Below, piece by piece: positions 578 to 59,230 of a DNA stretch of 64,000 nucleotides (positions within the stretch are counted from its first letter, which is position 1; every line of letters begins with the position of its first letter). The position numbers were made by a program, and so were the translations under genes. Below the pieces are notes generated by a model, which was given only the letters and a program-made list of their open reading frames with translations, was not told where the DNA came from and did not search any database. Origin of the DNA: Eledone cirrhosa (Eukaryota); the NCBI GenBank assembly GCA_964016885.1, contig OZ024743.1, positions 202,616,001 through 202,680,000 of the forward strand, given 5' to 3'.

Positions 578-740
578 GTGCGGTGGATTCGCAGTATCGG
601 TAGAGGGTCAGCATATTTGCATCACTTTACGGTCTGAGTTCAAATCCCGTCGAGGTTTCATCCTTACGGTGTCGATGGAATAAAGCACCATTAATGCATT
701 GGGATAATTGCTGGCTTTGTGCCAAAAGTAGAAACAATTA
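578..740 (+). mobile_element. tRNA-derived SINE (Meta-domain-like), diverged copy
   Basis: A-box-like gcagtatcggtagag, B-box gagttcaaatccc, core catccttacggtgtcgat and 3' end agtagaaacaatta, shared with more than 10 copies in the window. Confidence 0.8.
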
Positions 741-2171
741 TGAAAACATTTGCATTTCACCAGCCATCTTTATTCATATATTTCCTCAAAGAAGCCCATC
801 GGACCATAAACATTATACTCCATTTTGTTTTTCTCTTTGGGAAAAGGGATTTTAATTATGAAATATCAATAAATATGAGGTAGAAATGTGAAATTTTGTC
901 TTATTTATTGCCCTTTTTTTTCAATATTTTGTATCTAACTTGCATATGTTTCTTTGTATGTGTGTGAGTGTGCGAATGGCTTCTGGGCAATTTATGCTTC
1001 GCAAATTCATTTACATGTCATTTGTTCACACAAATTTCTGGTGGATGACACTTGCTTAATGTGTTGTGTAGATGGATTAAACTCAGCCCTGTGGATGCAT
1101 ATTAACTTTCTGAAATACGACACGATGATTAATCATAGAGTTTGAAAAAATTCAGAATAGGATTTAAAATTAGAAGAATACGGTTAGTTATATCAGGTTT
1201 AAAATATATTATATTCTCATATGGAATACTGAAAAGAAGTATATAATTAACATTGGCCTCTTTTGTGTAAGCAAATTTATGTATATATATATGCAGGAAT
1301 ATGCATATATATATGCAAAACTATGTAAGCATGAGTCATTATATACAAGTTTATGAAGATATATGCGAGTATTTAAAGACATGGTAACATGTATTCATTA
1401 ATATATAGAATAATGAACATTTGTATCTAAATATACATAAAATGTTTGGGCAAATAGGATGTTTCATATGATATAGATTATAACATATAACATTTCGTTT
1501 TCAGTGACACAAATTTATTCATGAAATGCAAAGAAATTCATGCGCTTGAGATACAATATTTTCGTCAGTGTTAACAGGTGTAAGATATGCATATTACGTT
1601 AATATTATATACAAATAAACCTATACACGTTTGTATGTATATATATATATACATATTTCTCTTAATTACCTGTATACAAACAGAGAGAGGGGTGTGAAGG
1701 GAACATAAATATTCCAGTAGCATATTCATAAGCAATGAGTTGTCATGATTACATAACCAATTCCTTTTCATAGGCGGTACCAGATGAAAGAATGACAACA
1801 TTGAAGTGTGTGGGATTTGAGACTGGCTTGTAAAGAGCAGAATCAAATACCACAGACGCTCTAACATTTCTACCAATCCATTACATTAATAAGAACATTG
1901 GCAATGACAATAATAGTAATAGTATTCCTTTCTCTATTACATACAAGGTATCACACAGAAAATACAAGAAACACTATAAGGTGTAGGCTAAAATACGCGT
2001 GGGCGCAGGTCAAACAGGCTTATATAAAACGAGTTTGATTTTGTACAACAGAGGAATAAGATTTGATGAAACATGAAATAAGAAGAAAGATTCTATAACA
2101 CTCAATAATTCGAATAAGTTATATTGTAAAAGATGAACAACATTGGCTTAATCTGAACATACTGACTGCCA

Positions 2172-9883: not shown

Positions 9884-10294
9884 GACTAAGGAGAAAAATT
9901 AGGTAAATTTTATCTGACTGTTCTTCAAACTTATATTTTTTATATATAATATATGTAGATATATGATGTCTCGGAAGCCCTTATTAACCTACACACCAGG
10001 GAAGTGTTGGAAATTGCATCAACTCCAAATTTCCACGCTGGGAAACACGTGTTAGTTGTAAATCTATATCATAAGAACACGGGTTACGGAAATACAATCA
10101 CGTAGGAATCCATCCCCTTATCAATATCTCATATTAAAATTAACTGAAGTTAATATCTAATGAACTTGTGTTGGTAGTTAGGTTATGATTGCATTGAGTA
10201 ATCATGAAATCCATAAAAATGTGCATTGCAGTAGAATCTGATTACCATGTGTTAGAACTTTGTACATCTGGCCCTTATACATATAATTAGGTAG

Positions 10295-10478
10295 TTGATT
10301 GGCAGTATAGGTAGAGAGTCGGACGCCATACTTTGCAGTATAGATTTATGTCCCTTTACATTCTGAGTTCAAATCCTGTCGAGGTTAACTTTGCCTTTCT
10401 TCCTTACGAGGTCGATAAGATAAAATACCATTAATGCACTGGGAAATTGCTGGCCTTGTGCCAAAAGTAGAAACAATT
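10295..10478 (+). mobile_element. tRNA-derived SINE, same family
   Basis: Full A-box, B-box, core and 3' end match the other copies. Confidence 0.85.
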
Positions 10479-10599
10479 ATTGTATGTATTCTCTGCCGTG
10501 GACTTCCAAATAGTTTCGGAAGGGTACATATGTCATCAAATGCTTGACTTTAATTGTATCACACTTTACAGATAGTAGTACATACACAGCCTGTTTGGT

Positions 10600-10734: not shown

Positions 10735-12770
10735 CTTTTAATATGTTTTGTAAGATTTCTTATCTTTAATTTGTAGATTAAATGGAGCATTATACCAAGT
10801 AACTCGTCTATTACGGTTTCGATGTTGTTTTCTATATTTATACGATGTATCAGGATGTTTATTATGAGAGTTAGTATTAGTGAATTTATTATATATAGGT
10901 TTAGTTAGATTAACTGATTTAGGTGTTTTAGTCTGATTATTAGGAATTTTGTTAGTAATATTATTAACGTATATTGGAGTATTAAGATGAATGGTTTTTC
11001 GAAAGTTATTATATTTTATGTGAGCAGAGGTAGAGAAATTAAGTTTTAGGTTGGTATTTCGGGGTGTAGTGTGAGTGGCATTTAGGTGTGTGCTTTCCAT
11101 TTGGTGTTTGTTGGTAATATTGGGTTGTATGTTTGAAGTATTATTGGTGCAAGGTATATAGACTAATTTGTTTCTGTGTCCGCTTCGAGCTAAAGCTTCT
11201 TTATAAACATCCTGATACATCGTATAAATATAGAGAACAACATCGACACCGTAATAGACGAGTTACTTGGTATAATGCTCCATTTAATCTACAAATTAAA
11301 GATAATATCCCTAAAATATGTTTACTATCCTAGAGAAACACTTCCCGCCAAACCATAAATACAATCAAATTTTAAATAGATCAACTGTCAAACTTTCCTA
11401 CGCCACTACTAAAAGTATACAACAAAATATAAGTGCGTACAATGCATATAAATGTAAAAAGAAAATCACGAATATACCACCAACACATCAAACCAACCAT
11501 AATACTAAAATAAACCGCAACAAACCACCATCTCCTTCACATATAACAAGTCGGAGTAAATTCCACACCAAATTTGACTAACTCCCCTGATATAATATTC
11601 ACAAATGGTTGTAACTGTAGAAATAAAAGAAAAAAGAAATTGCCCATTAAAGGGAAATTGTCTTATTAATAACATAGTATATAAATGTAAAATTAGACAC
11701 TAAGGACTCAACTTATTCATATATAGGAGCTCTGTCTAACCAATTTAAAGTAAGATTTAATACCTACAAACATAGTTTTTAAAATGCCGCATTAGCTAAT
11801 ACAACATCCTCCTTGGCTGAAATAATTAATAATTATAGAAAAAAGAATATCGATTACAACCTGACCTGGAGTGTGCTCAAAAGGGCCACCCCTTATCAGA
11901 ATAACAGATATGAGTGTAGATTATGCTCGCAGGAAATTTTTGAAATAATGAAATCTAAGGATATCCTCTTAAATAAGCGACAAGAATTAATTATATCTTG
12001 CAATCATAGAATTAGAAGAACTTTCAAATATTATAAACCTAATTAATATACACCTTACACTTATATTTTACATATTATTATAATTAGTTTTTTTTAATTT
12101 AGTTAACCTATACTTAGTACTTTACTACAGAGAACTTCATAATTGTATTTCCCTCTTACTCTTTTCTTAAAATTAATACCTAAAACTATACATATAAATT
12201 AATTTAATTTCCTGTTATGAATCTAGATTCCGTGTTGTCTATATAAGATTGGTATTTCTCACTACTACATTTATCCCACAATTTTAATTTTCTTCGTTTT
12301 TAACAACATTTTTAATAACATCTAACTCTTATTTATCACATCCATATGAATTAATATAAATTTATCCCTATAAGTATGCCTATCAATTAATGTAATTTCT
12401 TGTTATAGATCTAAATCCCTTGTGTTTTAAATAAGATTGGTATTTCTCACTAACACCTTTAGCCTGAAATGTTATTCTCCTTCGGTTTTAACATTAACAT
12501 TATTCTTTAATAACATGAAATTTTCGTGTACCCTTCACCGGTTGACCTCTTTTCATCCCAAAGTATTCTTTTCATTCAAAGTATTCTTTCCATTCAAAAT
12601 TTAAGTCTGCATTCCTCTACCCCTAAATTAAATTTCTACTACTACTATTCTATCAACTTGACTTCTTACTACTTTTCCATTGGTCAATTCAAAACATGTT
12701 CCCAAACAGACCTATTATATTAAATCTTTGTTGTTTTTTTTCAATAAACAAATATCATTATTTCTGAAGA

Positions 12771-13064
12771 GGTTAACTTTGCCTTTCATCATTACGGGGT
12801 CGATAAAATAAAGTACCAGTAATGCACTGGGTAATTGCTGGCCTTGTGCCAAAAGTAGAAACAATTATTTCTTAAGGGCGGTGAATTGGCAGTGCCGGTA
12901 GAGGGTTGGACGTCATGCTTTCTAGCATAGTTACGTCCCTTTATGGTCTGAGTTCAAATCCTCTCGAGGTTAACTTTGCTTTTCATCCTTACGGGGTCGA
13001 TAAAATAAAGTCCCAGTAATCTACTGGGTAATTTCTGGCATTGTGCCAAAAGTAGAAACAATTA
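12771..13064 (+). mobile_element. Partial plus full tandem SINE insertion with 14-bp TSD attatttctgaaga
   Basis: 3' half copy 12771-12867 followed by a full copy 12874-13064; TSD at 12757-12770 and 13061-13074. Confidence 0.85.
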
Positions 13065-13192
13065 TTTCTGAAGACAGCATATATATATGAAGGTAGGTAT
13101 ATTTCCTCTGATAGTTTGTAACATTTTTACAGAGATCTATATGGTATCCCTACCAACACACATATCTATCCTAGAAACGATCGTAAAATGAT
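13061..13192 (+). ncRNA. Type I hammerhead ribozyme with ~100-nt stem II (family F)
   Basis: attattt-CTGAAGA(13068-74)-long stem II (ggtagg/cctacc, ctctg/cagag)-GAAA(13174-77)-CGATCG-TA-aaatgat; palindromic stem III and GUA site at 13185. Confidence 0.7.
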
Positions 13193-13574: not shown

Positions 13575-13615
<41 letters not shown>

Positions 13616-13617
13616 CA

Positions 13618-13795
13618 AATAATTGTTTCTACTATTGGCACATGGCCAGCAATTAACCAGTACATTACTGGTACTTTATTTTATCGACCCCGTAAGGATG
13701 AAAGCAAAGTTAACTTCGGCGGCATTTGAACTCAGAATGGCAAGGGCCGTAACTCTATGCGTCAAACTGACCCTCTACCGATACTGCCAATTCAC
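13618..13795 (-). mobile_element. tRNA-derived SINE, same family
   Basis: Reverse complement of the family consensus. Confidence 0.85.
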
Positions 13796-14392
13796 CATAC
13801 AAATAATGAATCAAAACATATGAAATATGTTTAGAATTTGTACTTTCTCAATAGACAAGCCCAATAAACATTATCTTCAGCCATAATAACCAAATAAAGA
13901 GATATATGTATATATATAAAGAGAAAGGGCCATATATAATAAAGAAACCCAGTCTATTGTATATACACCAAATACATTACTCTATACTAGAATATGTACA
14001 CAGGGGAATCATATGTCTCACCATTCTAAGGGTAATATAGAATGAAGATGGTAAATAAATCAATATACCTGGGAATATCTGATGAGTATCTGAGTCACAT
14101 GTGGTTTAATCATAATCGAGAGTTTGTCTTCGATGATCGAATATATTGATTGAATATTTTTTTCTTAGGATGATCGATTATATTGATCGATTTTTAGCCA
14201 TACTCTCCAGGTATGAAATAGCGCTACAAGGTTTCACTTATGATTATACCTGTGTACATAATCTTCTATAGAATATGTATTAGGTATATATACAATATAC
14301 CGTGTTTCTTGTGCGATATATGGCTCTGTCTCTCTCTGTATATACATATATCTCTTTATTCGGTTATATATGCACACACACACACACACACG

Positions 14393-15120: not shown

Positions 15121-15479
15121 CAGGCATTGCACGATAGCATTAATTAATTATTATTAATAATAGTATATCGTGCAATGGCCATACTCGATAAAGTGGGGGC
15201 AGCCATCATCATCATCATGTATGTATGTATGTATATTAACAACACAGCTTAACTCTTTATTGTTAAACTCATTTCTACGGTACCTCCTCCCCTTTGTTAC
15301 GATGTCGGAAGGACAATGTGACACTGGAGGGTGTGTGGTATATTTGCAGTGGAGTGGTGGGGGCAGGTATACCTAGCCGGGCGCCAGCCAGACGGGTCAG
15401 CTAGTATATATATTTTTAACAACTCCGTTACGCTTGGCCGTATATTATTAACCATCTTGCCGTATATTATTAACCATCT

Positions 15480-15668
15480 AGGGCGGTGGATTGGCAGTAT
15501 CGGTAGAGGGTCGGACGCCATGCTTTCCAGCGTAGTTACGTCCCTTTACCATCTGAGTTCAAATCCCGCCGAGGTTGACTTTGCCTTTCATCCTTACGGG
15601 GTCGATAAAATAAAGTACCAGTAATGCACTGGTAATTGCTGGCCTTGTGCCTAAAGTAGAAACAATTA
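15480..15668 (+). mobile_element. Full tRNA-derived SINE with 14-bp TSD attattaaccatct
   Basis: TSD at 15466-15479 and 15665-15678. Confidence 0.9.
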
Positions 15669-16050
15669 TTAACCATCTTGCCAATAAGAACCTAGAGCAC
15701 CTTTTTGAATTCCATGTGTCTAACACCCGTGGGCATGCCTACAAATTCAAAAAAAACAGCACTGCTCCTATGACTTTCGGAAACATTTTTTCCCGCTCAG
15801 GGTTGCTCAAGCATGGAACAAACAACCTGCATCAGTTGTTAACTGTCGAGAAATTACATCCTTTAAAACCTCAATGCTTCCTGAGATTCGCCAACACTGC
15901 ACCTAATGTCTCCGTCCATACACACGTACACATGTATTTCATGACTCGTACATTGTTAATTTTACTCATATTTGAACATTGTTCTATGTACTATACATGC
16001 ACCTTTGATGAGTTGTACTGCACCTGAGCACTGTACGCAATAATTTTATT

Positions 16051-17195: not shown

Positions 17196-17292
17196 TTATA
17201 ACGAAGGAAATGTGGTAAGGAACCAGGTGGACCATAACGCACCAAAGTACTCAATACTTGAGGTAGTAGAGTGGGTAATAGGAACCAGTAAG

Positions 17293-17386
17293 ACCCCGAC
17301 AGCTGAGTTCAAGCCGTTTCGACGGCTAATTCTGGACTAAATGAAAATTTATCCTGGTATTTAAATAGCCGATCTTCTCAAGGGGT
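17293..17386 (-). ncRNA. Type I hammerhead ribozyme, U3-A8 variant (family B)
   Basis: Reverse complement of 18618-18711. Confidence 0.8.
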
Positions 17387-17751
17387 AATTCCATATATGG
17401 TCAAAGTGATTGTCAAAAATCAGTAGTAATTCTGTGGTTGCAAATTAGTAGGGGAGATGGTGGCTAAACCTGCCAGTAGGAGAAAGAGGGGAGGGGGTGG
17501 AGTAGACCCAATCAAGCGTTGGTAGTGCCAGCTACAGCTGGGCATGAGGTCAAAGAAGATACAGGGGAGGGGGAGGGGGAGGAAGTCGGAACGGTAGGTA
17601 GAACAATGGGGGGTAGAAATAGGAAAGAAAAAATACTGAGAGTGAAGAAAAGCAAATAAGTGTAAAGAAAAAAGTAAAGTAAATTAAATTCTACGACCTA
17701 GGTGTCAGGCTATTGTTAGGCTAGAATAAAATAAAGAAAGAAAGAAAGAAG

Positions 17752-17782
<31 letters not shown>

Positions 17783-18617
17783 CGAAATAAGTAAAAGAAC
17801 TAGGTGGGACGGGATAGGCAAGGACCCTTTTAAGAGGTATAAGTACGTAAATGATACGGTGACGGGTCAACAAAAGGGGCCAAAATACTAAAGAGACTAC
17901 CACGAAATAAACAATAAAGGCTTCCATCCCGGGCCAGCAACGACCCAGTGCAGCAAAGTGAACTTGTACGAGATAATAATTCTGAGTCCCGAGAAAAATA
18001 TATACTAATGCTAACTCTAAAAGATCTAAAACAAGCTACATGAAGGTTCGTACGAAATAAAGGTAGAAATACGGAGAAATAAATTCAGAATCCACCCCGC
18101 CCAGAAGAAAAGCGAAGCAAGAAATACTGAAACGAAAAAATAAATAGTACCCCCACCAAAAATAAATACCACCCCCTCCCCTAGTCTATGATAGATTTGG
18201 CGGACTCCGCCCTTTATAGCAGTTGGCTTAGACCCCGGATACTTGCCCCCTTTTTCCGTCCGCTCCCACTATTCTCTGTGCCCTCTATATTTCTTAGTGG
18301 CATTTATGCCTTATTTTTTCGTTTCAGTATTTCTTGCTTCGCTTTTCTTCTGGGCGGGGTGGATTCTGAATTTATTTCTCCGTATTTCTACCTTTATTTC
18401 GTACGAACCTTCATGTAGCTTCCTCCCCCTCCCCCTCCCCTGTATCTTCTTTGACCTCATGCCCAGCTGTAGCTGGCACTACCAACGCTTGATTGGGTCT
18501 ACTCCACCCCCTCCCCTCTTTCTCCTACTGGCAGGTTTAGCCACCATCTCCCCTACTAATTTGCAACCACAGAATTACTACTGATTTTTGACAATCACTT
18601 TGACCATATATGGAATT

Positions 18618-18711
18618 ACCCCTTGAGAAGATCGGCTATTTAAATACCAGGATAAATTTTCATTTAGTCCAGAATTAGCCGTCGAAACGGCTTGAGCTCA
18701 GCTGTCGGGGT
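18618..18711 (+). ncRNA. Type I hammerhead ribozyme, U3-A8 variant core TTGAGAA (family B)
   Basis: ACCCC-TTGAGAA-gatcggcta...tagccgtc-GAAA-cggct tgagctc agctGTC-GGGGT; GUC site at 18706. Confidence 0.8.
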
Positions 18712-18765
18712 CTTATTGGTTCCTATATATATTTATATATAAGTTTATATATATATATGTATATA

Positions 18766-25833: not shown

Positions 25834-25972
25834 CATAGTTACGTCCCTTTACGGTCTGAGTTCAAATCCCGCCATGGTTAACTTTGCCTTTCATCCTTAC
25901 GGGGTCGATAAAATAAACTACCAGTAATGTACTGGGTAATTGCTGGCCTTGTGCCTAACGTAGAAACAATTA
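25834..25972 (+). mobile_element. 5'-truncated SINE
   Basis: catagttacgtccctttacggtctgagttcaaatccc...tagaaacaatta. Confidence 0.85.
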
Positions 25973-26031
25973 TATATACATATATATATATATACACATA
26001 TATACATATACACACACATATATACACATAT

Positions 26032-26605: not shown

Positions 26606-27496
26606 TTAATTGTAAGTTGTGATGTTGCTGTTCCACTCATATTTTCTATTTAATTTTGGTTTTAATTCTTTTATGCTTACTGCCTCTGTAATTTGCCTAA
26701 ACATTGCGTCTTTCTTGTGTGTGGATTCTATTTTTATTTCTATGCTCTCTAATTTACCCCTGTGTTCTATCTTAGCATGTTGGTAGAGCACAGATGATTC
26801 TTTACTATTTTGGAGGTCTCGCCAGTGTTCATTTATTCGTTCCCCTATACTACGAGCTGTCTCACCTATGTACACTACATTTTTGTTTCTACATTGTCCT
26901 TCAGTACATCTTATGCTATAAACTACATTTCTAGTTTTACAGTTAATATGGGGGCTTATTTTACAGGTTATGCATTTCTTATCTATACATGAGGGTCTTT
27001 GGAACGGGTATGTCTTGCTAATAAGTGTTTTTACGGAGGTACCAGGTCTTTCTACTATCTTAATATTGAGATTATGTTTCTTTAGGGCCCTTCTAAATTT
27101 GTAGGCTAGTTCGCCTCTAGGGGTTGTATTGATGAACATTACACTCTGGTATTTATTGCTATCATACCATGAGTTTATTCTATTGGCCTTGTTCTTAGTT
27201 CTTTCTATTCTATTCCAAAATTTGCTCCTATACAAGGGGCAGGTCCCATTTATGTCATTATTTACCATTTTTTCCCATTTGGTTCTGGCTCCTTTATACA
27301 CTCTGATTCTATCTCTCTGATTGTAGCCAGAGAACTGCATACGGTGGATGAAGTGTTGTATGTGTCTCTCTAGTTCTTCGGGGTTGCACATGCGGGACAC
27401 ATTTCTCATCACCCGTACCAAATCCGCAATCAGTATGTTGATTTTGGTATGGTCCGAAATGGCCGAGTTTCGGTGGATCAGATGTTTGGAAGTCAT
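26606..27496 (-). CDS. Penelope-like (Neptune-type) RT thumb, linker and GIY-YIG endonuclease, 5'-truncated (left arm)
   Basis: HRNSAISDHTK (thumb), CIDKKCITC Zn motif, NVVYSIRC...YIGETARSIGERINEH, ITEAVSIKELKPKLNRK. Confidence 0.85.
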   Translation of the reverse strand: MTSKHLIHRNSAISDHTKINILIADLVRVMRNVSRMCNPEELERHIQHFIHRMQFSGYNQRDRIRVYKGARTKWEKMVNNDINGTCPLYRSKFWNRIERTKNKANRINSWYDSNKYQSVMFINTTPRGELAYKFRRALKKHNLNIKIVERPGTSVKTLISKTYPFQRPSCIDKKCITCKISPHINCKTRNVVYSIRCTEGQCRNKNVVYIGETARSIGERINEHWRDLQNSKESSVLYQHAKIEHRGKLESIEIKIESTHKKDAMFRQITEAVSIKELKPKLNRKYEWNSNITTYN

Positions 27497-27516
27497 GGGT
27501 TTGTCATGACAAACCC

Positions 27517-28407
27517 ATGACTTCCAAACATCTGATCCACCGAAACTCGGCCATTTCGGACCATACCAAAATCAACATACTGATTGCGGATTTGGTACGG
27601 GTGATGAGAAATGTGTCCCGCATGTGCAACCCCGAAGAACTAGAGAGACACATACAACACTTCATCCACCGTATGCAGTTCTCTGGCTACAATCAGAGAG
27701 ATAGAATCAGAGTGTATAAAGGAGCCAGAACCAAATGGGAAAAAATGGTAAATAATGACATAAATGGGACCTGCCCCTTGTATAGGAGCAAATTTTGGAA
27801 TAGAATAGAAAGAACTAAGAACAAGGCCAATAGAATAAACTCATGGTATGATAGCAATAAATACCAGAGTGTAATGTTCATCAATACAACCCCTAGAGGC
27901 GAACTAGCCTACAAATTTAGAAGGGCCCTAAAGAAACATAATCTCAATATTAAGATAGTAGAAAGACCTGGTACCTCCGTAAAAACACTTATTAGCAAGA
28001 CATACCCGTTCCAAAGACCCTCATGTATAGATAAGAAATGCATAACCTGTAAAATAAGCCCCCATATTAACTGTAAAACTAGAAATGTAGTATATAGCAT
28101 AAGATGTACTGAAGGACAATGTAGAAACAAAAATGTAGTGTACATAGGTGAGACAGCTCGTAGTATAGGGGAACGAATAAATGAACACTGGCGAGACCTC
28201 CAAGATAGTAAAGAATCATCTGTGCTCTACCAACATGCTAAGATAGAACACAGGGGTAAATTAGAGAGCATAGAAATAAAAATAGAATCCACACACAAGA
28301 AAGACGCAATGTTTAGGCAAATTACAGAGGCAGTAAGCATAAAAGAATTAAAACCAAAATTAAATAGAAAATATGAGTGGAACAGCAACATCACAACTTA
28401 CAATTAA
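27517..28407 (+). CDS. Penelope-like (Neptune-type) RT thumb, linker and GIY-YIG endonuclease, 5'-truncated (right arm)
   Basis: Identical to the left-arm protein apart from one N/D difference. Confidence 0.85.
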   Translation: MTSKHLIHRNSAISDHTKINILIADLVRVMRNVSRMCNPEELERHIQHFIHRMQFSGYNQRDRIRVYKGARTKWEKMVNNDINGTCPLYRSKFWNRIERTKNKANRINSWYDSNKYQSVMFINTTPRGELAYKFRRALKKHNLNIKIVERPGTSVKTLISKTYPFQRPSCIDKKCITCKISPHINCKTRNVVYSIRCTEGQCRNKNVVYIGETARSIGERINEHWRDLQDSKESSVLYQHAKIEHRGKLESIEIKIESTHKKDAMFRQITEAVSIKELKPKLNRKYEWNSNITTYN

Positions 28408-30957: not shown

Positions 30958-31008
<51 letters not shown>

Positions 31009-31012
<4 letters not shown>

Positions 31013-31213
31013 AACGAGTAGGACCCCGACGGCTGAGCTCGAGCCGTTTCGACGGCTGATTCTGGACTAATTCTGGAGTCCAGAATTAGCCGTCGAAACG
31101 GCTTGAGCTCAGCCGTCGAGGTTCTACTCGTTCCTATTACCCACTCTACTACCCTAAGTATTGAGTACTTAGGTGCGTTATGGTCCACCTGGTACCTTAC
31201 CACATTTCCTTCG

Positions 31214-31215
<2 letters not shown>
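31009..31215. mobile_element. Short fold-back of the family-B pLTR 3' end in (TA)n
   Basis: Arms about 31009-31068 and 31077-31136, 8-nt spacer aattctgg. Only the 3' half of the HHR is present; the right arm carries an ~80-nt extension. Confidence 0.85.
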
Positions 31216-31269
<54 letters not shown>

Positions 31270-31739
31270 AGAGTCAGGTCAGTACACCGACGGCAGAGCT
31301 CAAGCCGTTTCGACGGCTATATACCAAGGAGGCAAGAATCGAACAAACAAAATGAATCTTTAATATGAAGTATATATATATATGTATGTATACATTCATG
31401 CATACATACATACATATATATATAAATATATATATATAAGGGATAACAAAATATCGTTATAGGTAATCCAGTTAGAGGTTGTGAATACCTAGTATTATGG
31501 ATAGTTTTAGCGTACGGCGTTGTTTGACTCAACAAGAAGTTTACGTACGTGGCGAGTTTATGAGTGCTCTTGTACTCCTATGTAAGTTTATCTTGGAGTA
31601 ATAATATTGAAAGAGTGAATAATAACATGGTCAACAGTACAAAAAAGGGTTTTATTTACAGTCTGACAATTGTTTCAATATATATATATATATATTATGT
31701 ATATATATACTTATACATACTCACACACACACGTCGTCG

Positions 31740-33965: not shown

Positions 33966-36910
33966 TGTAGTCTGTCTCTTTATTTCACTCTCCCTCTCTC
34001 TCTACGCGTGCGCAAAAAACATTCGCTCGCGCGCATGTGTTTTAGCGTCTATTCACTCTCTCTCTCTCCCTCCCGCTATCCCCCTCTCGTAGTCTGTCTC
34101 TTTCTTTCACTCTGACTCTCTCTCTACGCGTGCGCAAAAAACATTCGCACGCGCGCACGTGTTTCCACTGTCGGACAGACAGACAGAGAAATTGCTGGTT
34201 ATATATTATAAGGAGATTACAAATTCGATTTTTACACTTGGCGTGGGTCGATTTGAAACATTTTGACTCCGCCGGACCTTCATCTATAAGTGTAGCAATT
34301 TCACCGAAATTTGAACGTACGGTTTAAGAGGAGATGTGTGCCGAAGGTTTTAGTAGACAGTCAGACAGACAACCTCAGTTTTATATATATAGACTAGCAG
34401 AAAACCACCCGGAGGGCGGTTTTCTGCTAGCAAATCTAGTGTATATACTGATATTGTTGAGATTTGGATGAGAAATCTTTTCGGCACCACGTGTTCACCG
34501 TCTCTCGGTGTGTCTTTTATGCATGAATAAATATATATGTTATCTATACGGTGAAATCTTTGAAATAAATATATGTTAAAACGAAAAAGGAGAAAAAGAG
34601 ATTAGTGACGGAAATATAAACGTTATGATATAACGATGGAAATATATCTTCAAATGGTCCTTGGCATGGTGTCAAGTCAGAACAGCCTCGAACTGGTTAC
34701 TTATAGCTTGTGCAATGTGTCTCTATAGCAACCAGCGATTCCCTCGGCCTCAGTGACCAAAGTCAGTGGAGAGGGGCAGGTAATGTTTCTATAGCGACAG
34801 TGTTTCTCTTGGTAGTACCAAAGTGGAGAAAGGAAGGGGAAGGTACAGACAGACAGACAAACAGAGAAATGCCCATGTATTTCTGTGTGTATATATATAG
34901 ATATATATATATATATATTACACACACAGAAATGTATATATATTTCTGTGTGTATATATATATATATTACACACAGAGAAATGTATATATATTTCTTAGA
35001 ACAAAATTATTATTAATGTTTTGCTGTTCATAACAATTGGAATTGAAAAATTACTTTTGAAATTATTAGTTATTTTACTAATGCTTAGATATGTAAAAAT
35101 GAAGCAATGTTTCTAATAATTGTTTCTACTTTTGGCACAAGGCCAGCAATTACACAGTACATTGCTGGTACTTTATTTTATCGACCCCGTGAGGATGAAA
35201 GGCAAAGTTAACCTCGGCGGTATTTGAACTCAGACCGTAAAGGGACGTAACTCCATTCTATGAAGCATGGTGTCCGACTCTCTACAGATTCTGCCAATCC
35301 ACAGCCCTAATGTCTGTATGTAATGAGGGAGTGAGAGGGGAGAGAAAGAAAGGCAGAGGTGAAGTGACGAAGTGACTCTCTCCTCCTCCTCCTCCTCCTC
35401 CTCCCCCATCTCCCCATTCGTCACAGAGAGGAGGAATGTTAGTGTGTTACAAAGAGAAAGAGTGAGAGTGAGAGAAACAGACAGACTAAAAGAGAGGGAT
35501 AGCTGGAGAGAGAGAGATAGCAACCACGCGCGCACGTGTTTCCACTGTCGGACAGACAGACAGAGAAATTGCTGGTTATATATTATAAGGAGATTACAAA
35601 TTCGATTTTTACACTTGGCGTGGGTCGATTTGAAAACGTTTTTGACCGAAGACTCCACCGGACCTTCATCTATAAGTGTAGCAATTTCACCGAAATTTGA
35701 ACGTACGGTTTAAGAGGAGATGTGTGCCGAAGGTTTTAGTAGACAGACAGACAGACAGACAGTGACTCCGCTGGACCTTCATCTATAAGTGTAGCAATGT
35801 CCCCGAAATTTAAACGTACGGTTTAAGAGATGTGTGCCGAAGGCTTTAGTAGACAGACAGACAGACAACCTCAGCTTTACATATATAGACTTCAAAGTCA
35901 AGAAATGGTGATTGTCGAAAATAACGCCAACAGAGGCAGTCTCATTAGAGCCAATAGAATTTTCCCAAAAATAATATGGGCCGAAGCCGAAAAAAATTTT
36001 GTTTGGCAGCTCTAATTGCGCCTTAATTTTATTCAAAAAATTGTATACTAACATATTCGAATACCAGGCACTATTAGAATCAACAATAGCAGCGTCCTGA
36101 GGGTCATTACAAAACCAAAATTCGCGAGAATTAGTGTTTAAGGCTTGGAAGGTGGTAAAAAAATCCACAAAATCTTCCATTCTTTTAAAAAAAAAATTTA
36201 TTTTTAATAATATTCAAATAACTGGCGGTTAGAAAAAAATATTCCTATGAAATTTTAATCATACCATTAGGTGTGAATAAGGAAATATTTTTTTTATTCT
36301 CAAAACAAATGTTCAAAATTTAAACTTCAATTTTTTGAATTATTTCCAAATTTTTCATAAAATTGAACACTGGACATTGGCTGCTGGAAATGGACATTAA
36401 ATCGTATTTAATTGTATTTAAATTTCTAACCTTATTTTATTATTTATATTTTTTCAATAAGAAATAAAAAAAAAAATTGAAGAAAAAAATTGAACAAATC
36501 AAACGTAGGTTATGGAACTGCGCAATCTGATTAATAAATTACCTCATCAGAAACAACCTTCTTCAAATGGTCCTTATTATCAGCAGCAACAACCACAAAT
36601 TCAATGGCAACCTTCTTCAAACCACATGGTGTCAAGTCAGAACCGCCTCGAACTGGTTACTTCTGGCTTGTGCAAGGTGTCTCTATAGCAACCAGCGATT
36701 CCCTCTGCCTCAGTGACCAAATTCAGTGGAGAGGGGAAGGTACTGTTTCTATAGCACGCGTTTTAGCGTCTATTCACTCTCTCTCTCTCCCTCTCTCCCT
36801 CTCGCTATCACCCTCTCGTAGTCTGTCTCTTTCTTTCACTCTCACTCTCTCTCTACGCACGTGTTTCCACTGTCGGACACACAGACAGAGAAATTGCTTG
36901 TTATATATAT
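33966..36910 (-). mobile_element. Mosaic of duplicated Helitron-like segments
   Basis: 34148-34370 matches 35526-35760; 34265-34393 matches 35764-35889; 34666-34795 matches 36626-36755; 34040-34205 matches 36760-36908. Confidence 0.65.
35117..35308 (-). mobile_element. tRNA-derived SINE, same family
   Basis: Reverse complement of the consensus. Confidence 0.85.
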
Positions 36911-36917
36911 AAGTAGA

Positions 36918-37108
36918 TAATTGTTTCTACTTTAGGCACAAGGCCAGCAATTACCCAGTGCATTACTGGTACTTTATTTTATCGACACCGTAAGGATGAA
37001 AGGCAAAGTCAACCTTGGCGGCATTTGAACTCAAATCGTAAAGGGACGTAACTATGCTGGAAAGCATGGCGTCCGACTCTCTACCGATACAGCCAATTCA
37101 CCACCCTT
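36918..37108 (-). mobile_element. tRNA-derived SINE, same family
   Basis: Reverse complement of the consensus. Confidence 0.85.
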
Positions 37109-44581: not shown

Positions 44582-46795
44582 CTACATTTTAAATTTAAAT
44601 TTATATTTAAACGCTGAGTTTAATCTATGTTTGCAGCAACTGAATACATTTGTCCGTAGATTAAGGGAATTTTTAGATTTTAGTATAAAGAATATCTCCT
44701 CTGCGCAGAGGTCACATGTCTCAGAGGATGAATTAAAAGGAATCCGTCTTGAGACTATATTCCAAGCCGTCGAATATCTAACGTTATCTAGCTTAAGTTG
44801 CCAGAGTACGCCTGATAGTGCCGTTGAAGATTTTTTGCTTGGATCTGTGAAAGAATTCTTGTGGTTATTATAGCGAAGTTTAAATTCCGTCGATGTGGAA
44901 CCGACGTAGTTAAAAGAATTAGAGTCAGTATTAACATTACAATTGTATACTATATTTTTAACTAAGCAGTTGTTATTTAACGGACATTTAGATCTATCTC
45001 TACAGTTACATTTGTTAACTTGTATATTATGTATGCTATTATCACTAGGTTTTAAGTTCCTATTATTTATTCTATTAATATTTTGTGCTAAATTTTTGGT
45101 GGATGAGTAGGTTAATTTTATTGTATGTCTATTGAAAATTGAGTGATACCTATGTGTTCTAGGGAAGCGATTATCAAGACCTTTAAAAAATATTTTAGCG
45201 ATGTGGGTTCTAATGTTTAGTGAGAAAGGGGGGGCAAACCAAATTATGTTCCTAGTTCTATTTCTTTTTTGGCCTTTGGAATTATTGTAATGCTTTCTAT
45301 TATAGTTGTTAAGGTTGTTGCCGTAATTAAAATAGTTGTTATTTTGTTTAGTTTGTCTATCATTATCTATGTACACAATCTTATCAGCATATCCTGCTCT
45401 AGCTAATGCTTCATTGTAGTATTGGGCTTTTTCGTCGAAAATCTTTCTATTCGACGAAATCCTAGAGATACGTTTTTGAACAGAGTTTACTATAGTGTTT
45501 TTGACAGATCTGGGGTGGTTAGAGTTAAAGTTGACATAGTTTAAGTTTTCATTCAACTTGTGAAAAGGATAGTGAAGACATGTGTTGAGATTTAATGTTA
45601 TATCTAGGAAATTGACTATTCTATGGTTGTTCTCAATTTCTATTTTAAGATTAAAGTAATTAAAAAATTGTGTAATTTGTTTACATTTTCTATTTAGTTC
45701 AGAGTTATTATTATCAATAAGTAAAAGCATGTCATCTCTATATAAACCTCCGGTAGTACCAGGTATTTTCCTATGTAGCGAATTGATTAAAAATAAGCCC
45801 ACAAGGTCAGTTACCTGAGCTGAGTCGGATGATCCCATAGTAATGTCAAAATTGCTATCTCTATCTGCTCTGGTCCATAGTTGGTCATTAAATTCTATCA
45901 AAGTTTTCCTAGCCGATAATATAATATGCATTTCATTGCTAGTTAGGTCAGTATGTTTGAATGCGTAATTTAGTGCCTTATTTAGTAGATTAGGGGTAAT
46001 AGAAGAATAATAGTTAGCTATATCAAGTTGAATAAACTTATTATTATTGTTATATTTAATTTGCTTAAACCACTCAACAACCTCTCCAGTTCCCTTCCAC
46101 AAGCTCAGGTTAGATAAACAATCCAAGTTCTTAATTTGCTGTATCACCCTGTCAAGAATGTTCTTGCTTAATTTGCCCAGGTCCGATTTTGATGGTGCGA
46201 TCAATCTAACTGGCAAGTCATTTTCAAAATACCTCTTGTGATCTTTCATATTGATCTTCGGTTTCCTGGGCACGAAAGGTTGTGTTCTGTTCTCAATTTC
46301 CAACTCGTGCATTATACAAGATGCTTCGACATTCATTTTCTCAAGCTCGGCCTTATCTGCTACCTTGTACTTTTTCCTCAGCTCCTTCTGTATGAGGCCA
46401 TTATACATGTCTTTCTGCACTCCATAGAGGTTGTTGGTCTTGTCAGATTTCACCAAGATCTTCTCAGTTTTCTCTAAGCTCTCAATGTTATCCTTAATGC
46501 CTTTCAGATATTCCTGGCCTTTGAAGTTTCTCTTGAATTTGACCCCTTGTATGATGGAAATTATATCGTTTTCAAAGTCAGATAAAAGTTTGTTAGGGGG
46601 TGGATTTCTTTTAGATTTGAAAACTTTGTTTAAGTCCGAGACATTTTCATTTATATTAGATTTATCAAAGTGGAATGCTCGCCACCTGATTCTCCTTATA
46701 AAAGAGTCAGATTTATCTATTAATTGTTTTATAAAGTCTTTGTTTCTAGGTAGAGGTATGTCTTTTAAAGAGGAAGTAATCTTAAAGAATTCCAT
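44582..46795 (-). CDS. PLE reverse transcriptase plus C-terminal GIY-YIG endonuclease, 737 aa, apparently intact
   Basis: KSDKT, QLDIANYYSSI, ITMGSSDS, GLYRDD, FLDITL, SNHP, WFAPPF, CNCRDRSKCPLNNNC, IVYNC..YVG..FKLRYNNH, CDLCAEE. Confidence 0.95.
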   Translation of the reverse strand: MEFFKITSSLKDIPLPRNKDFIKQLIDKSDSFIRRIRWRAFHFDKSNINENVSDLNKVFKSKRNPPPNKLLSDFENDIISIIQGVKFKRNFKGQEYLKGIKDNIESLEKTEKILVKSDKTNNLYGVQKDMYNGLIQKELRKKYKVADKAELEKMNVEASCIMHELEIENRTQPFVPRKPKINMKDHKRYFENDLPVRLIAPSKSDLGKLSKNILDRVIQQIKNLDCLSNLSLWKGTGEVVEWFKQIKYNNNNKFIQLDIANYYSSITPNLLNKALNYAFKHTDLTSNEMHIILSARKTLIEFNDQLWTRADRDSNFDITMGSSDSAQVTDLVGLFLINSLHRKIPGTTGGLYRDDMLLLIDNNNSELNRKCKQITQFFNYFNLKIEIENNHRIVNFLDITLNLNTCLHYPFHKLNENLNYVNFNSNHPRSVKNTIVNSVQKRISRISSNRKIFDEKAQYYNEALARAGYADKIVYIDNDRQTKQNNNYFNYGNNLNNYNRKHYNNSKGQKRNRTRNIIWFAPPFSLNIRTHIAKIFFKGLDNRFPRTHRYHSIFNRHTIKLTYSSTKNLAQNINRINNRNLKPSDNSIHNIQVNKCNCRDRSKCPLNNNCLVKNIVYNCNVNTDSNSFNYVGSTSTEFKLRYNNHKNSFTDPSKKSSTALSGVLWQLKLDNVRYSTAWNIVSRRIPFNSSSETCDLCAEEIFFILKSKNSLNLRTNVFSCCKHRLNSAFKYKFKFKM

Positions 46796-49255: not shown

Positions 49256-49494
49256 ACAACGGGTCACTTTGTGGCTCAATCAAGAGTGAATAAATTAAAT
49301 AATCAGAGCTATTTATCCCCTTGAAAAGTTCGGCTATTTATTCACCAGGCTAAAAATTCTAATTTAGTCCAGAAATAGCCGTCGAAACGGCTTGAACTCT
49401 GCCGTCGGGGTCATACTTTTTCCTATTTCCCACTCTACTACCCTAAGTATTGAGTACTCAGGTGCGATATGCCTTACCACAATTCCTTTGTTAA

Positions 49495-50123: not shown

Positions 50124-51009
50124 ACACTCATCTTTTTCTATTTTTCCGAGGGTTATAAACCCCACTATCAGGCTAGACATCTCTTTAGTCTAAAATACGG
50201 TGAAAGCTTATAATATATATATATATATATACATACACTCATACATACACACACACATATACACATATATATGTGTATATAAATACACACATACACATAC
50301 ATATACACATACATACATACGCACATAAATATCAACACATCCATACATACACATACATATATACAACCACACACACATATATACACACATATATATATAG
50401 AAACATAAATATATATATATATATATATGCATACACATACACATATATAGTCATACACACATACATATACATACATACATACATGCACACAATCATACCT
50501 ATATACACACGTACATACATACACATACATAAATGCATACATATGCATGTACAAAATTAGAAAAAAATATATACACACACCTCTACATATTCACACACGC
50601 AAATTAATATAAGGAAAAAATATATATATAAAAAAATAAAATCATAAAGACTATTGTACAGTTGACAGCGATACAAACGACGAATAGATGAACAGACACG
50701 CGTGGTAAGCAATACACACAAATGCACGTACACATACGTACGAAAAAGTAAATACATACACACACACTCTCACACATAAATATACATATACAAATACATA
50801 AACACATACATACGCATACACAAATACATACACAAACACACACACACACACATATACATATATACACCCACATATACACATACATATATATATATATATA
50901 TAAATACACACACACATATATCTACACACATATATATATATATATACATACACACACACGTACAATGGGTTCATATGAGAGTGCGGATGTGTGCGACTTA
51001 GTAGGATCA

Positions 51010-52380
51010 TTCCTTCTTCACACCCCCAAAGAGAAATTTCCTTCCCATAATATCGGTTTATAACGTGATGACGGATTGGCAGTCTCTCATACCACCAACG
51101 GCCATAACCTTGATAAATTCCATAAAGATGTAATCAATACTTTTGCTAATCTTAACCTTAAAATCACTATAGATACGAACCTTTCCAATGCCAACTTTCT
51201 TGATGTTAATCTTGATCTACTTACCGCCTCTTTTAAACCTTATCATAAACCTAATGAAAATCTTAGGTATATACACAAAGAGTCTTGCCAACCCCCTATA
51301 GTTTTTAATAATCTTATTCCTAACATTAGCCGTAGGATTTCTACCTTATCTTCGTCTATAGACATTTTTAATAAAGCCACCCCTTATTATAATAAAGCCC
51401 TTAAGAACAGCGGTTTTACAGAATTTTTTTTTATTTATCTACCCCCCCCCCCCTAAAACTAACCACTATATCAGGAAAAGGAAAATTATTTGGTTCACAC
51501 CCCCCTTCTCTCTAACTGTCAAAAATAATGTAGGAAGGACATTCCTTGAACTCTTAGACAAACATTTTCCTCCTAATCATAGATATTGTAAGATATTTAA
51601 TAGGAACGTAGTTAAGATCAGTTACTCTTGTTGCCCATCTATGAAGTCTAAGATCACTAGTTCAAATCATACGAGAACAAATCCAGGATGCAGTTGCAGG
51701 AAGCCGGATGAATTCCCATTGCAGGGTAAATGTAACACCAAATCTGTTGTTTATGAGGCTAAAATAACACCGGTAATCAACAACCAGCCAGCCAGGAGTG
51801 AGCGATATGTCGGTATGACCGAGGACAGGTTTAAAACCAGAGTTTACACACATGTCGCTTCTTTTAAGCACTCCGATAAACGAACATCAACGGCCCTCGC
51901 AAGTAAGGTGTGGGAATTCAAGGATAGTAACATCACGTACTCTATCGATTGGTCTATCTTAGACCATTCGAGGGAGTACCAAAGGGGCACAAGAATTGTT
52001 CTTTGTGTACCACTGAAAAATATAGGATTTTGCTAAACTTGAGAGCCACTTATGCTTGCCTAAACTCAAAGACCGACATCTTCAGATGTTGTCCTCATCT
52101 GAAATCACAGCTGATCTGTAACTGGATTTATACTCCTATGATAAATCAACCGCCTTGAACTCCTTCTCTGCTCTTTACTTCTACTACGGTTTTTTTATTT
52201 TTTTATTTACTGAATCCACGTTCTGTACCCTTGTATTCTTTTTCTCCCTTATCTCCCCTTATATTTCACCTTTTCCTATGTCTTTCCCCGCCCCATATAT
52301 TCTTTTTGCCTTACCCTTCACATGCCAAAATGTATGTGCATGTATGTGTATGTGTATATATATATATATATGTATATATA

Positions 52381-56890: not shown

Positions 56891-58601
56891 CTATCCGTTA
56901 GGGTATAACGTGGGGCTGTAGTACAGGAAAGTTTTGTGCAATTTATGTTTACAAGCCGAAATTGCCTCAAACTTTTTGTTTAAGATGTGGTCTGTGGCGT
57001 AGAGTATTTCCAGGGCCTCAGCGGCGCAGAGGTCACATGGTCTTTTATTTCCGTTATACGATCTAGCCCTAGCTAGGATCTCCCAGTGTAACTTATATTG
57101 GGTGTGGTTGTCTTTTAGACTCCAGATATAAGCTGAAAGTGACGTCATATTCCTTTCTAAAGGGTAACGAAAAGAATGGGTATGCATGTAAAGACGCTGC
57201 TTGAAACTATTTGCGGTTAACCCTATGTAGGCCCTACGGGACATGTGTGTTACAACCTTACATTTGTAGACAATGTTACTAGAGAGGCATTTCCCGGATA
57301 GGGGGTAATCAGCCCGATTCCTACAATTACAGTTAGTACTAACTACAGGGTTGCACGTGTTCCTACGGCTAGGTAGTTTAGCTAAATTTGAAGCTGTGAT
57401 GTTATGTGCAAGGTTAGGAGTCGTAGAGTAAGACATTTTAATAGTATTTCTATTAAAAATTTTACTATATTTATGTGTAGGGGGAAAATACTTCGTAATA
57501 AGGGAAAGAAAGATCTTAGCTAATGGTGTGGCCACCTCCATATTATATGCTGGGTTAAACCAACAAATGCGACGGGATCTATTTCTTCTAGGTCTATTTT
57601 CGTACTCTGTATATGCTACCCTATCGACAAATCCACTTCGAGCAAGAGTTTCATTGTAATAAGTGGAATGGTCGTTGAAAATGCGCTCGTTGGTGGAAAG
57701 ACGGGAAAGTCTCAACGAAACGTTTTTTACCAGGTTCTTGGTTATGCTGGCAGGAAGTTTGGAATGCTTACTTATGTAATTAAGCGTATCATTCGGCTTT
57801 CTATACGGGTAATACAACCCATTCAATAAATTGAGGGTAACGTCGAGGTAATTAACGACCGAGAGATTGGCCTCAACCTGTATAGAGAGGTTGAAGCCTT
57901 TAAAGAAGGCTGTGAGTTCTTTTCTGAACATGTCGCAAGCACGAGATCCGCACTTAGTCATGGTCAAAAGACCATCGTCACGGTATAAACCACCGCCCGC
58001 GTTGGGGAATTCGTCCTTGATAGAGAAAAGAAGGAAAAGGCCAATAAGATCAGTAACCTCCGCAGAGTCACCGGCGCCCATACTCATGTCGAATGGGGTA
58101 CTATTGGATTTTTTAATCCAAATAGAGTAGTCGAAATTAATCACCGACTTTCGGGCATTAAGGATGACATCAACTTCGAAATCCTTAACCACTGTGAGTG
58201 TTTTAGCGAAATTGATAGTTCTAAGGAGAAGTGGTAAAGTGATGGAGGAGTAGTAATTGTTGATGTCGAATTGGATAAAACGGCAATGTTCCTTGTTACA
58301 TATGCCGTTGAACCAATCAATCACCGCGAAAGAATTGTTCCACAGTGCGAGAGGGGCCAAACTTCTAATTTCAGGTATAATTCTATCAAGAATCGTTTTA
58401 CTAAGTCTACCTAAATCGGACTTGGTAGGGTTAATAAGCCGAATAGAGGGGTTGTTCGGAACATTGGATTTGTGATCCTTCAGGGTAAAGTGGGGAGAGA
58501 TAGGGTCCAGAGGTTCGGTCCGGTCCAGGATGTTGAGATCAGATGTGATTTTAAACCCAGCATCGTTGATTTCATTGATGACACACCGATTAGTTTTACG
58601 G
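56891..58601 (-). CDS. PLE RT plus GIY-YIG, open but N-terminally truncated (first 9 aa of the 578-aa track ORF are microsatellite)
   Basis: TLKDHK, RLINPTKSDLGRLSK, QFDINNYYSSI, GLYRDDG, WFNP, CNCRNRADYPLSGKC, IVYKC..YIG, CDLCAAE. Confidence 0.9.
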
Positions 58602-58622
58602 TATATATATATATATATATAT

Positions 58623-59230
<608 letters not shown>

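What the first reader, a model, noticed from the sequence alone, without database searches (positions are those of the whole stretch)
18618..18711. Natural U3-A8 compensatory hammerhead (UUGANAA) with branched stem II
Seen: in three complete copies (17293-17386 minus, 18618-18711, 49317-49410) the core is TTGA(G/A)AA. Both partners of the C3-G8 tertiary pair are swapped, and only N7 varies. Stem I (cccc/gggg), stem III and the GUC site are intact, and stem II encloses an extra hairpin (ggataaat/atttagtcc). Known: the 3-8 pair tolerates U-A at reduced rate and such natural variants are uncommon. Inference: a high-copy mobile family fixed this variant, perhaps to slow cleavage.
Basis: partly seen in the sequence, partly recalled or inferred. 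Interest (0 to 1): 0.8.

Follow-up and report, generated by a model that had tools for sequence, protein, structure and literature searches.

The report
Mismatch-tolerant hammerhead of Hydra-clade Penelope element
The motif is the hammerhead RNA motif at the end of a very abundant Penelope-like jumping gene; its U-A core swap is already in print, but a quarter of the complete copies spread with that pair broken, and a few hundred inserts begin exactly at the predicted cut site, which suggests it likely cuts slowly in living cells.

Summary
The motif is real. It is the pseudo-LTR hammerhead of a Hydra-clade Penelope-like retroelement (intact 719-aa RT/GIY-YIG ORF in L120), with 7,145 exact matches to the 5' core and 39,611 to the 3' half. 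U3-A8 cores are published (2011; about 1,300 in Schistosoma PLEs, 2014), so the headline is not new, and helix II is long and bulged, not branched. 'Only N7 varies' fails genome-wide: A8 is fixed (7,045 of 7,145), but 1,730 copies are C3·A8 mismatches and only 10 are C3-G8. An ORF tree puts the C3·A8 copies as a ladder between older and younger U3-A8 subfamilies (AU p 9e-66 against one clade). About 370 inserts begin exactly at the scissile bond versus 40-64 at three neighbouring positions, 15 of 57 with both arms starting there: a likely footprint of in-vivo cleavage. Against a simple reading, these stubs come from C3·A8 subfamilies about as often as expected. Most copies (84 of 99) are half-ribozymes ending at a likely transcription start inside helix II. 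Earlier scan notes saw U3-A8 cores and cut-site arms in other genomes. No activity was measured.

The parts
18612..18723 (+). Complete type I hammerhead motif, youngest subfamily; extended stem I (GGAA 18612-18615 with TTCC 18720-18723; ACCCC 18618-18622 with GGGGT 18707-18711)
18623..18629 (+). Core strand U3 U4 G5 A6 G7 A8 A9
18630..18683 (+). Long unbranched helix II: G10.1-C11.1, A10.2-U11.2 (this subfamily only), bulge, CGGCUA/UAGCCG (18633-18638/18676-18681), internal loop, distal hairpin 18650-18670
18664..18669 (+). Conserved YYAGTY motif; A 18666 is the hard 5' boundary of half-ribozyme inserts, likely the transcription start (inferred)
18684..18706 (+). G12-A15.1, helix III (ACGGC/GCUGU) with palindromic loop TGAGCTCA 18693-18700, cleavage triplet GUC, C17 = 18706
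18168..18723 (+). Short-ended arm of the insertion: 3' UTR fragment plus hammerhead, ends 17 nt after the cut site at (TA)n
17198..18143 (-). Long-ended arm of the same insertion: 3' UTR fragment, hammerhead (17293-17386, core 17381-17375, C17 17298) and about 100-nt tail, ends at (TA)n
49317..49493 (+). 5'-truncated copy of an older U3-A8 subfamily: hammerhead (core 49321-49327, C17 49406) and tail; lacks the 5' strand of the outer stem I
31008..31215 (.). Head-to-head stub of two half-ribozymes: short arm 31008-31070 (-), long arm from 31077 (+), starting at the A of the YYAGTY motif
31284..31319 (-). Further half-ribozyme fragment
56894..58775 (-). Decayed sister-family element: RT/GIY-YIG ORF part 56894-58600 (54% identical to L120), tail 58618-58703, inverted half-ribozyme 58714-58775 (+) with the CAGCTA/TAGCTG helix II variant

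Best explanation
It is the pseudo-LTR hammerhead of a Hydra-clade Penelope-like retroelement family, likely a slow and conditional self-cutter whose cleavage is likely not needed for transposition. Shown: it sits at the 3' end of an RT/GIY-YIG element in tandem and head-to-head arrangements within (TA)n; inserts end 17 or about 98 nt after the cut site; all complete copies span the scissile bond; the main lineage amplified with U3-A8, then C3·A8, then U3-A8 again; a minority of inserts start exactly at G1.1. Inferred: transcription starts inside helix II (A 18666), so the RNA's 5' copy is a half-ribozyme and only the 3' copy is whole; the element's RT primes on both nicked target strands at the two internal sites; priming on the 5' half gives the abundant stubs, priming on an uncut 3' copy gives long inserts, and priming on a cut RNA gives the G1.1 stubs. 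Because cutting would separate the priming sites from the ORF, a weak core (A8, a 2x1 loop after G10.1-C11.1, competing folds) would be tolerated or favoured. The G1.1 stubs of C3·A8 subfamilies would come from residual, perhaps protein-assisted, activity or from cutting in trans by a U3-A8 core strand, since all subfamilies share stem I and lower helix II.
For: Element identity: tandem unit 3,581 bp in L031, intact ORF 274 nt after the core in L120, Hydra motifs in alignment. Motif under selection: 12 core and junction columns identical in 28 of 28 aligned copies while N7 takes all four bases and 6 of 33 loop columns are invariant; helix II has 3 pairs with changes on both sides, 92.8% cells paired vs 29-54% when slid (relatedness inflates this). 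Core states: 7,145 / 100 non-A8 / 1,730 C3·A8; 24% C at 18623 also in run X1 (may be the same sample). Ladder: pLTR tree with positions 3 and 8 masked and independent ORF tree of 40 rows; one C3·A8 clade rejected, p-AU 9e-66. Cut-site ends: 687 matches at G1.1, 54 of the 100 listed are true junctions, about 370 (300-440), vs 60 at -3, 64 at -1, about 40 at +1 (14 of 100 listed of 287); 15 of 57 have both arms starting at G1.1 with filler A 7, T 6, AA 1, G 1; two run on into ORF-side sequence (L298, L321). Start inside helix II: 84 of 99 copies end 0-18 nt upstream of AGCCG, 3 between, 12 complete. Two priming sites: 56 short, 36 long, 7 other of 99; 20 of 21 head-to-head stubs pair one long with one short arm. 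Agrees with PMC11167929: two internal RT starts, both strands cut, hammerhead mutants insert normally, cleavage needs the protein.
Against: No cleavage, transcript or start site was measured. G1.1 stubs do not track the core: C3·A8-type tails 13 of 54 vs 31 of 100 intact copies (Fisher p 0.46), and the subfamily predicted to fold best (window type) 13 of 54 vs 26 of 100 (p 0.85); only pooled young U3-A8 tails are mildly enriched (36 of 54 vs 47 of 100, p 0.027, one of four tests). 11 of the 54 junctions have 1-2 nt microhomology (my reading). Only three control positions were tested. RNAalifold's consensus is a non-hammerhead fold, and G10.1-C11.1 is predicted at probability 0.10 or less in 11 of 12 subfamily majorities. 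PMC11167929 found no reads ending at the cut site in its element. No cap signature was found at A 18666. The return to U3 is one event and could be neutral C-to-T drift.
Confidence: 0.6

Rival explanations
1. The motif is a catalytically dead or near-dead hammerhead-shaped structure kept as a protein-binding or promoter scaffold; the G1.1 ends come from an RT stop at the three-way junction, a second transcription start or a host nuclease.
For: G1.1 stubs are independent of the 3-8 pair; the lineage amplified to 1,730 copies with C3·A8; competing folds dominate predictions; mutants that cannot cut still insert in vitro.
Against: A stop at helix III should keep C17 (position -1), yet -1 has 64 against about 370 at G1.1; fillers are A/T, not a cap-like G; U4, G5, A6, A9, G12-A14 and C17 are invariant in 28 of 28 aligned copies; only 2 of 99 copies end in the 4 nt next to lower helix II (L227, a misscored complete copy, set aside), so helices alone do not stop this RT.
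Confidence: 0.22
2. One reading: U3-A8 is a true compensatory pair fixed by selection to tune an efficient cis-acting monomeric ribozyme that processes the element's RNA, possibly into circles.
For: 74% of complete cores and the youngest subfamilies are U3-A8; helix III is stable enough for a monomer; the youngest subfamily gained A10.2-U11.2, raising predicted G10.1-C11.1 pairing to 0.62; circles would explain copies that span the cut site.
Against: C3·A8 lies on the trunk of the tree (p-AU 9e-66) and U3·G8 subfamilies also amplified; C3-G8 never did (10 of 7,145); the best-folding subfamily shows no excess of cut-site stubs.
Confidence: 0.13
3. The 5' boundary inside helix II is not a transcription start: it is an RT stall at the distal hairpin or at bound protein, or the conserved YAG is a splice acceptor of a pLTR intron.
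For: TTTAG/TTCAG with an upstream pyrimidine run resembles an acceptor (recalled consensus); PLE pLTRs hold introns; no cap signature seen.
Against: The boundary falls in the middle of the hairpin's 3' strand and is kept in subfamilies whose distal hairpin differs; only 3 of 99 end further upstream short of the core; stubs keep the G or AG that splicing would remove and show no constant upstream exon.
Confidence: 0.25

Closest known systems
U3-A8 minimal hammerheads of Cercyon PLEs, Schistosoma mansoni (Cervera and De la Pena 2014, PMC4209133)
   Same: Type I hammerhead in a PLE pseudo-LTR, U3-A8 core, over a thousand dispersed copies, opposite-strand pairs a few hundred bases apart, 4-5 bp helix I, G10.1-C11.1, palindromic helix III region.
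   Different: Full 5-bp helix III with a 9-nt loop (not minimal), 54-nt bulged helix II, no extra base between A9 and G10.1, large C3·A8 and small U3·G8 subfamilies, other PLE clade.
Hydra-clade PLEs and their hammerheads (Craig et al. 2021, PMC8557442, section 11 and File S2)
   Same: RW-basic motif, DKT, CxCX5C linker, C-terminal GIY-YIG, (TA)n target, hammerhead in the 3' region.
   Different: All 26 Hydra-clade rows of File S2 (6 novel, 20 Repbase) have a ctgaNga core and short helix II; here none of the amplified subfamilies has C3-G8; unit 3.1-3.6 kb with a long 3' UTR.
PAc Poseidon element of Anolis (Frangieh et al. 2024, PMC11167929)
   Same: Two internal RT start sites that define an optional tail, AT-rich target, both strands used, hammerhead upstream of the start sites, cleavage not needed for insertion in vitro.
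   Different: Here the hammerhead lies wholly upstream of the ORF, the tail is about 80 nt longer than the short end, the core is non-canonical, and genomic copies do begin at the cut site, which that paper did not see in RNA reads.
Natural U3-A8 hammerheads (Perreault et al. 2011, PMC3088659)
   Same: The same 3-8 covariation, reported in several natural examples and stated to be active in vitro.
   Different: Those were presented as compensatory; no amplified mismatch state was described in the passages read.

Membership tests
Type I hammerhead ribozyme | Three helices round the core with stem I open | tested here: met
   competing folds are also predicted
Type I hammerhead ribozyme | Core U4 G5 A6 N7, A9, G12 A13 A14, A15.1-U16.1, H17 | tested here: met
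   identical in 28 of 28 aligned copies
Type I hammerhead ribozyme | Watson-Crick pair between positions 3 and 8 | tested here: inconclusive
   met in the three window copies and about 74% of cores; not met in 1,730 C3·A8 of 7,145
Type I hammerhead ribozyme | Match to an Rfam hammerhead model | tested here: not met
   no match at gathering score or E<=10
Type I hammerhead ribozyme | Self-cleavage after H17 | not testable with these tools
   indirect only: excess of insert 5' ends at G1.1
Type I hammerhead ribozyme | Stem I - stem II tertiary contact | not tested
   an outer stem I with an asymmetric bulge is predicted; no contact was tested
PLE minimal hammerhead (min-HHR) | No or 1-2 bp helix III, dimer-dependent | tested here: not met
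   5-bp helix III; loop keeps a GAGCUC palindrome
PLE minimal hammerhead (min-HHR) | Located in the pseudo-LTR of a PLE | tested here: met
   L031, L118, L120 tandem units
Hydra-clade Penelope-like element | RWK-type motif, DKT, YxDD RT core | tested here: met
   LRWRTFF, SDKT, YRDD in L120 (features); RWR rather than RWK
Hydra-clade Penelope-like element | CxCX5C linker, C-terminal GIY-YIG EN with CxxC and CxH | tested here: met
   CNCPDRSIC, VIY..YIG, CNLC, CKH, read by eye
Hydra-clade Penelope-like element | Insertion into (TA)n, pseudo-LTRs, inverted 5'-truncated copies | tested here: met
Hydra-clade Penelope-like element | Phylogenetic placement with reference Hydra RTs | not tested
Non-LTR retrozyme | Short non-coding tandem repeats with one hammerhead each | tested here: not met
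   units of 3.1-3.6 kb with an ORF

The most novel reading that the evidence does not exclude
This family records in genomic DNA that a Penelope-element hammerhead cuts in living cells, and that it does so without needing its own 3-8 core pair: the element starts transcription inside its own ribozyme, making a half-hammerhead substrate that is cut in trans or with protein help, while the main lineage passed through a C3·A8 mismatch for several subfamilies and 1,700 copies before re-forming U-A.
Probability: 0.3. Interest if true: 0.78.

Novelty: new variant of a known kind. Interest (0 to 1): 0.5.

Why it matters
[quoted passage not shown] This family offers a natural allelic series at the 3-8 pair (U·G, U-A, C·A) in dated order, an intact ORF, and a countable genomic readout of RNA ends. 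That makes three questions directly testable: whether the ribozyme cuts in cells, whether cutting matters for transposition, and whether a core pair regarded as essential can be bypassed in an RNP or in trans. The U3-A8 swap by itself is ordinary.

Tried and rejected
Rfam: no hammerhead hit (only microsatellite noise). Pfam and PDB: nothing for the ORFs. Sequencing runs: no RNA holder listed, no evidence either way; contigs of X5 and X6 (3 and 5 laid) were too few to say anything on other species; the second laying gave no usable junction profile. Alternative core registers (inserted bases giving C3-G8) were rejected by eye because G12 must follow C11.1. 'C3·A8 is one derived side branch' rejected. 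'C3·A8 is sporadic mutation' rejected: both arms of pairs share it and it marks whole subfamilies. A conserved off-switch (AGYUC with loop III GAGCU) is suggested by RNAalifold but its predicted probability ranges 0-0.98 among subfamilies: not claimed. A cap-derived G at A 18666 was looked for and not supported: the 3 G cases are explained by partner sequence. The first folding script had an off-by-one in helix II and was replaced. Rates for G8A or C3U/G8A mutants could not be read: Przybilski and Hammann 2007, Nelson and Uhlenbeck 2008, Lunse et al. 2017 and Arkhipova et al. 2017 were not available, and searches found no usable numbers; that C3·A8 is strongly impaired is recalled, not shown. 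A positive control with the genome's canonical C3-G8 hammerhead families and a fuller position profile were not run.

Full report
Observation. The three motifs are in the sequence as described. In the + copy the core is 18623-18629, G10.1-C11.1 is 18630/18683, GAAA 18684-18687 and C17 18706. Folding gives stems I, II and III; helix II is one long helix with internal loops and a distal hairpin, not a branch. The copies at 17293 and 18618 are the two arms of one head-to-head insertion between (TA)n runs. Rfam does not detect the motif.

What carries it. The genome is a 3.0-Gb AT-rich eukaryotic assembly. Neighbouring loci hold RT/GIY-YIG frames next to the motif. L031 shows inverted pLTR, pLTR, ORF, 1.2-kb 3' UTR, hammerhead and tail, unit 3,581 bp. 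L120, of the same subfamily as the window arms, has an uninterrupted 719-aa ORF with RWR, SDKT, YRDD, CxCX5C, GIY-YIG, CxxC and CxH. These are the Hydra-clade features listed in PMC8557442 section 11. Clade placement rests on motifs read by eye; no tree with reference families was made.

What is known. PMC4209133 (parts 1-2 of 4 read) reports a U3-A8 core in Schistosoma Cercyon PLEs with about 1,300 hits. PMC3088659 (passages) reports natural U3-A8 pairs. PMC8557442 (passages, section 11, supplement part 2) lists only ctgaNga cores for its 26 Hydra-clade rows. PMC11167929 (parts 1-2 of 4) shows two internal RT starts, protein-assisted cleavage, and normal insertion by C3G or G8C mutants. I saw passages only of PMC6765202, PMC7151607, PMC2377424 and PMC7761336, and part 1 plus passages of bioRxiv 10.64898/2026.07.22.740005 (its supplements are closed). 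Searches found no paper on amplified C3·A8 cores or on genomic PLE copies starting at the cut site; the library lacks most subscription papers, including four that bear on this.

The core is not a fixed pair. Pattern CCCNTGANNAGNNCGGCTAT has 7,145 exact matches (control 0). Position 8 is not A in 100 (10 of them C3-G8, counted by eye). C3 with A8 occurs 1,730 times. The remaining 5,315 are U3-A8 apart from rare A3 or G3; 76 of the first 100 rows are U3-A8 and 24 are C3·A8. An older sister group with CAGCTA/TAGCTG in helix II (149 matches) is mostly U3-A8; G8 copies (61) include small U3·G8 subfamilies. In a pLTR tree of 157 of 200 copies (43 dropped for non-homologous upstream sequence) with positions 3 and 8 masked, and in an ORF tree of 40 copies (overlapping duplicates and rows under 300 columns left out, rooted on two sister-group rows), C3·A8 copies form a ladder between old U3-A8 copies and a young U3-A8 clade (100/98). 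Holding 13 C3·A8 rows together (L093, a lone C3 inside a young clade, left out) is rejected, p-AU 9e-66. C3·A8 copies carry ORF sequence in cis. So the main lineage kept transposing with the pair broken. Divergence from subfamily majority runs from 0.9% (window type, n=12) through 2.7% (main C3·A8, n=26) to 10-13% (sister group) (samples are biased by how loci were fetched). The rest of the core is invariant in 28 of 28 aligned copies chosen as close to subfamily majorities, and helix II shows three pairs with changes on both sides.

RNA ends written in DNA. The 3' half has 39,611 exact matches. In 99 distinct copies from the first 100 rows, 84 end 0-18 nt upstream of AGCCG, 57 of them at or inside the A of YYAGTY (window 18666), the rest extended by letters that the partner arm can supply; 3 end further up and 12 are complete (L227 rescored by eye as complete). 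I read this boundary as the transcription start, inside helix II (inferred; an Inr-like look is recalled; Penelope has an internal promoter). 3' ends fall 13-22 nt (56) or 85-102 nt (36) after the cut site, 7 other, and 20 of 21 head-to-head stubs join one long and one short arm, as expected if both target strands prime at two internal sites.

Ends at the cut site. Among tail-bearing copies 20,887 span the site intact. Three mismatches right before G1.1 give 687 matches. Of the 100 listed, 43 read TCG or CGG and were dropped as extra-G copies (7 of 7 viewed were such; 36 not fetched); 57 were viewed, 3 dropped as indels, 54 kept, about 370 genome-wide (300-440). Controls: 60 at -3, 64 at -1 (both unfiltered upper bounds, and 5 of 15 viewed at -1 have both arms at or within one base of G1.1), about 40 at +1 (14 of 100 listed rows of 287, by eye). 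In 15 of 57 both arms start at G1.1 with one or two filler bases, 13 of them a single A or T. This is what an RT running off an uncapped RNA end would leave, and it falls on the predicted scissile bond.

Results against. The stubs do not follow the core. Tails of C3·A8 subfamilies make up 13 of 54 against 31 of 100 intact copies (p 0.46), and none of those with the shared tail carries the marker seen in the 3 of 3 U3 copies with that tail. The best-folding subfamily is not enriched (13 of 54 vs 26 of 100). Eleven of the 54 have 1-2 nt microhomology. Predicted folds often favour non-hammerhead pairings. So either C3·A8 RNA is still cut (protein help or trans cutting) or the end has a non-catalytic cause. 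No RNA data were available.

Verdict. Identity as a PLE pLTR hammerhead of Hydra type is near certain. The mismatch-tolerant trunk, the cut-site footprint and the start inside helix II are what deserve follow-up. I put slow in-vivo cleavage that is dispensable for transposition at 0.6, and interest at 0.5. Earlier scan notes on other genomes describe U3-A8 cores, stubs at transcript starts and arms at cut sites; I saw the latter two after my own tests and they are not independent support.

Noticed in passing
window 43244 and 47031 (-), ORF 44585-46795 (-): A second Hydra-type element with an open 737-aa RT/GIY-YIG frame (42% identical to L120), flanked by two identical canonical C3-G8 minimal hammerheads 3.8 kb apart; a natural positive control for the junction test.
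   Followed up: partly
window 63628 (-), 63759 (+), 31968 (+), 29269 (-): Further CUGANGA minimal-type hammerhead motifs with AT-rich palindromic helix III, one as a head-to-head pair.
   Followed up: no
window 48957 (-): Canonical CUGAAGA core with a long (about 48 nt) helix II and short helix III; family not identified.
   Followed up: no
window 26606-27571 (-) and 27442-28407 (+): Near-perfect inverted pair of a 321-aa frame with a GIY-YIG-like C-terminus (VVY..YIG) from another PLE lineage.
   Followed up: no
window 580-744, 2172-2355, 10294-10481, 12875-13066, 13604-13797, 15479-15671, 25834-25990, 35113-35308, 36902-37107 and others: A roughly 190-bp dispersed repeat with more than ten copies at 74-95% identity, SINE-like in size; not characterised.
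   Followed up: no
window 50962-52098 (+) and 11232-12049 (+): Broken fragments of further Hydra-type RT/EN frames.
   Followed up: no
L208, L209, L321: Inserts with repeated restarts at the cut site or jumps between G1.1 and internal ORF positions, suggesting template jumping at an RNA end.
   Followed up: partly
searches lists: About 1-1.5% of tail-bearing copies have one G more or less in the G4 run right after C17; slippage or a scar of rejoining across the cut is not told apart.
   Followed up: no
L033 1272-4859 (-), L032 3732-4772 (-): Fragments of LINE-type reverse transcriptase frames next to the window and in a related locus.
   Followed up: no
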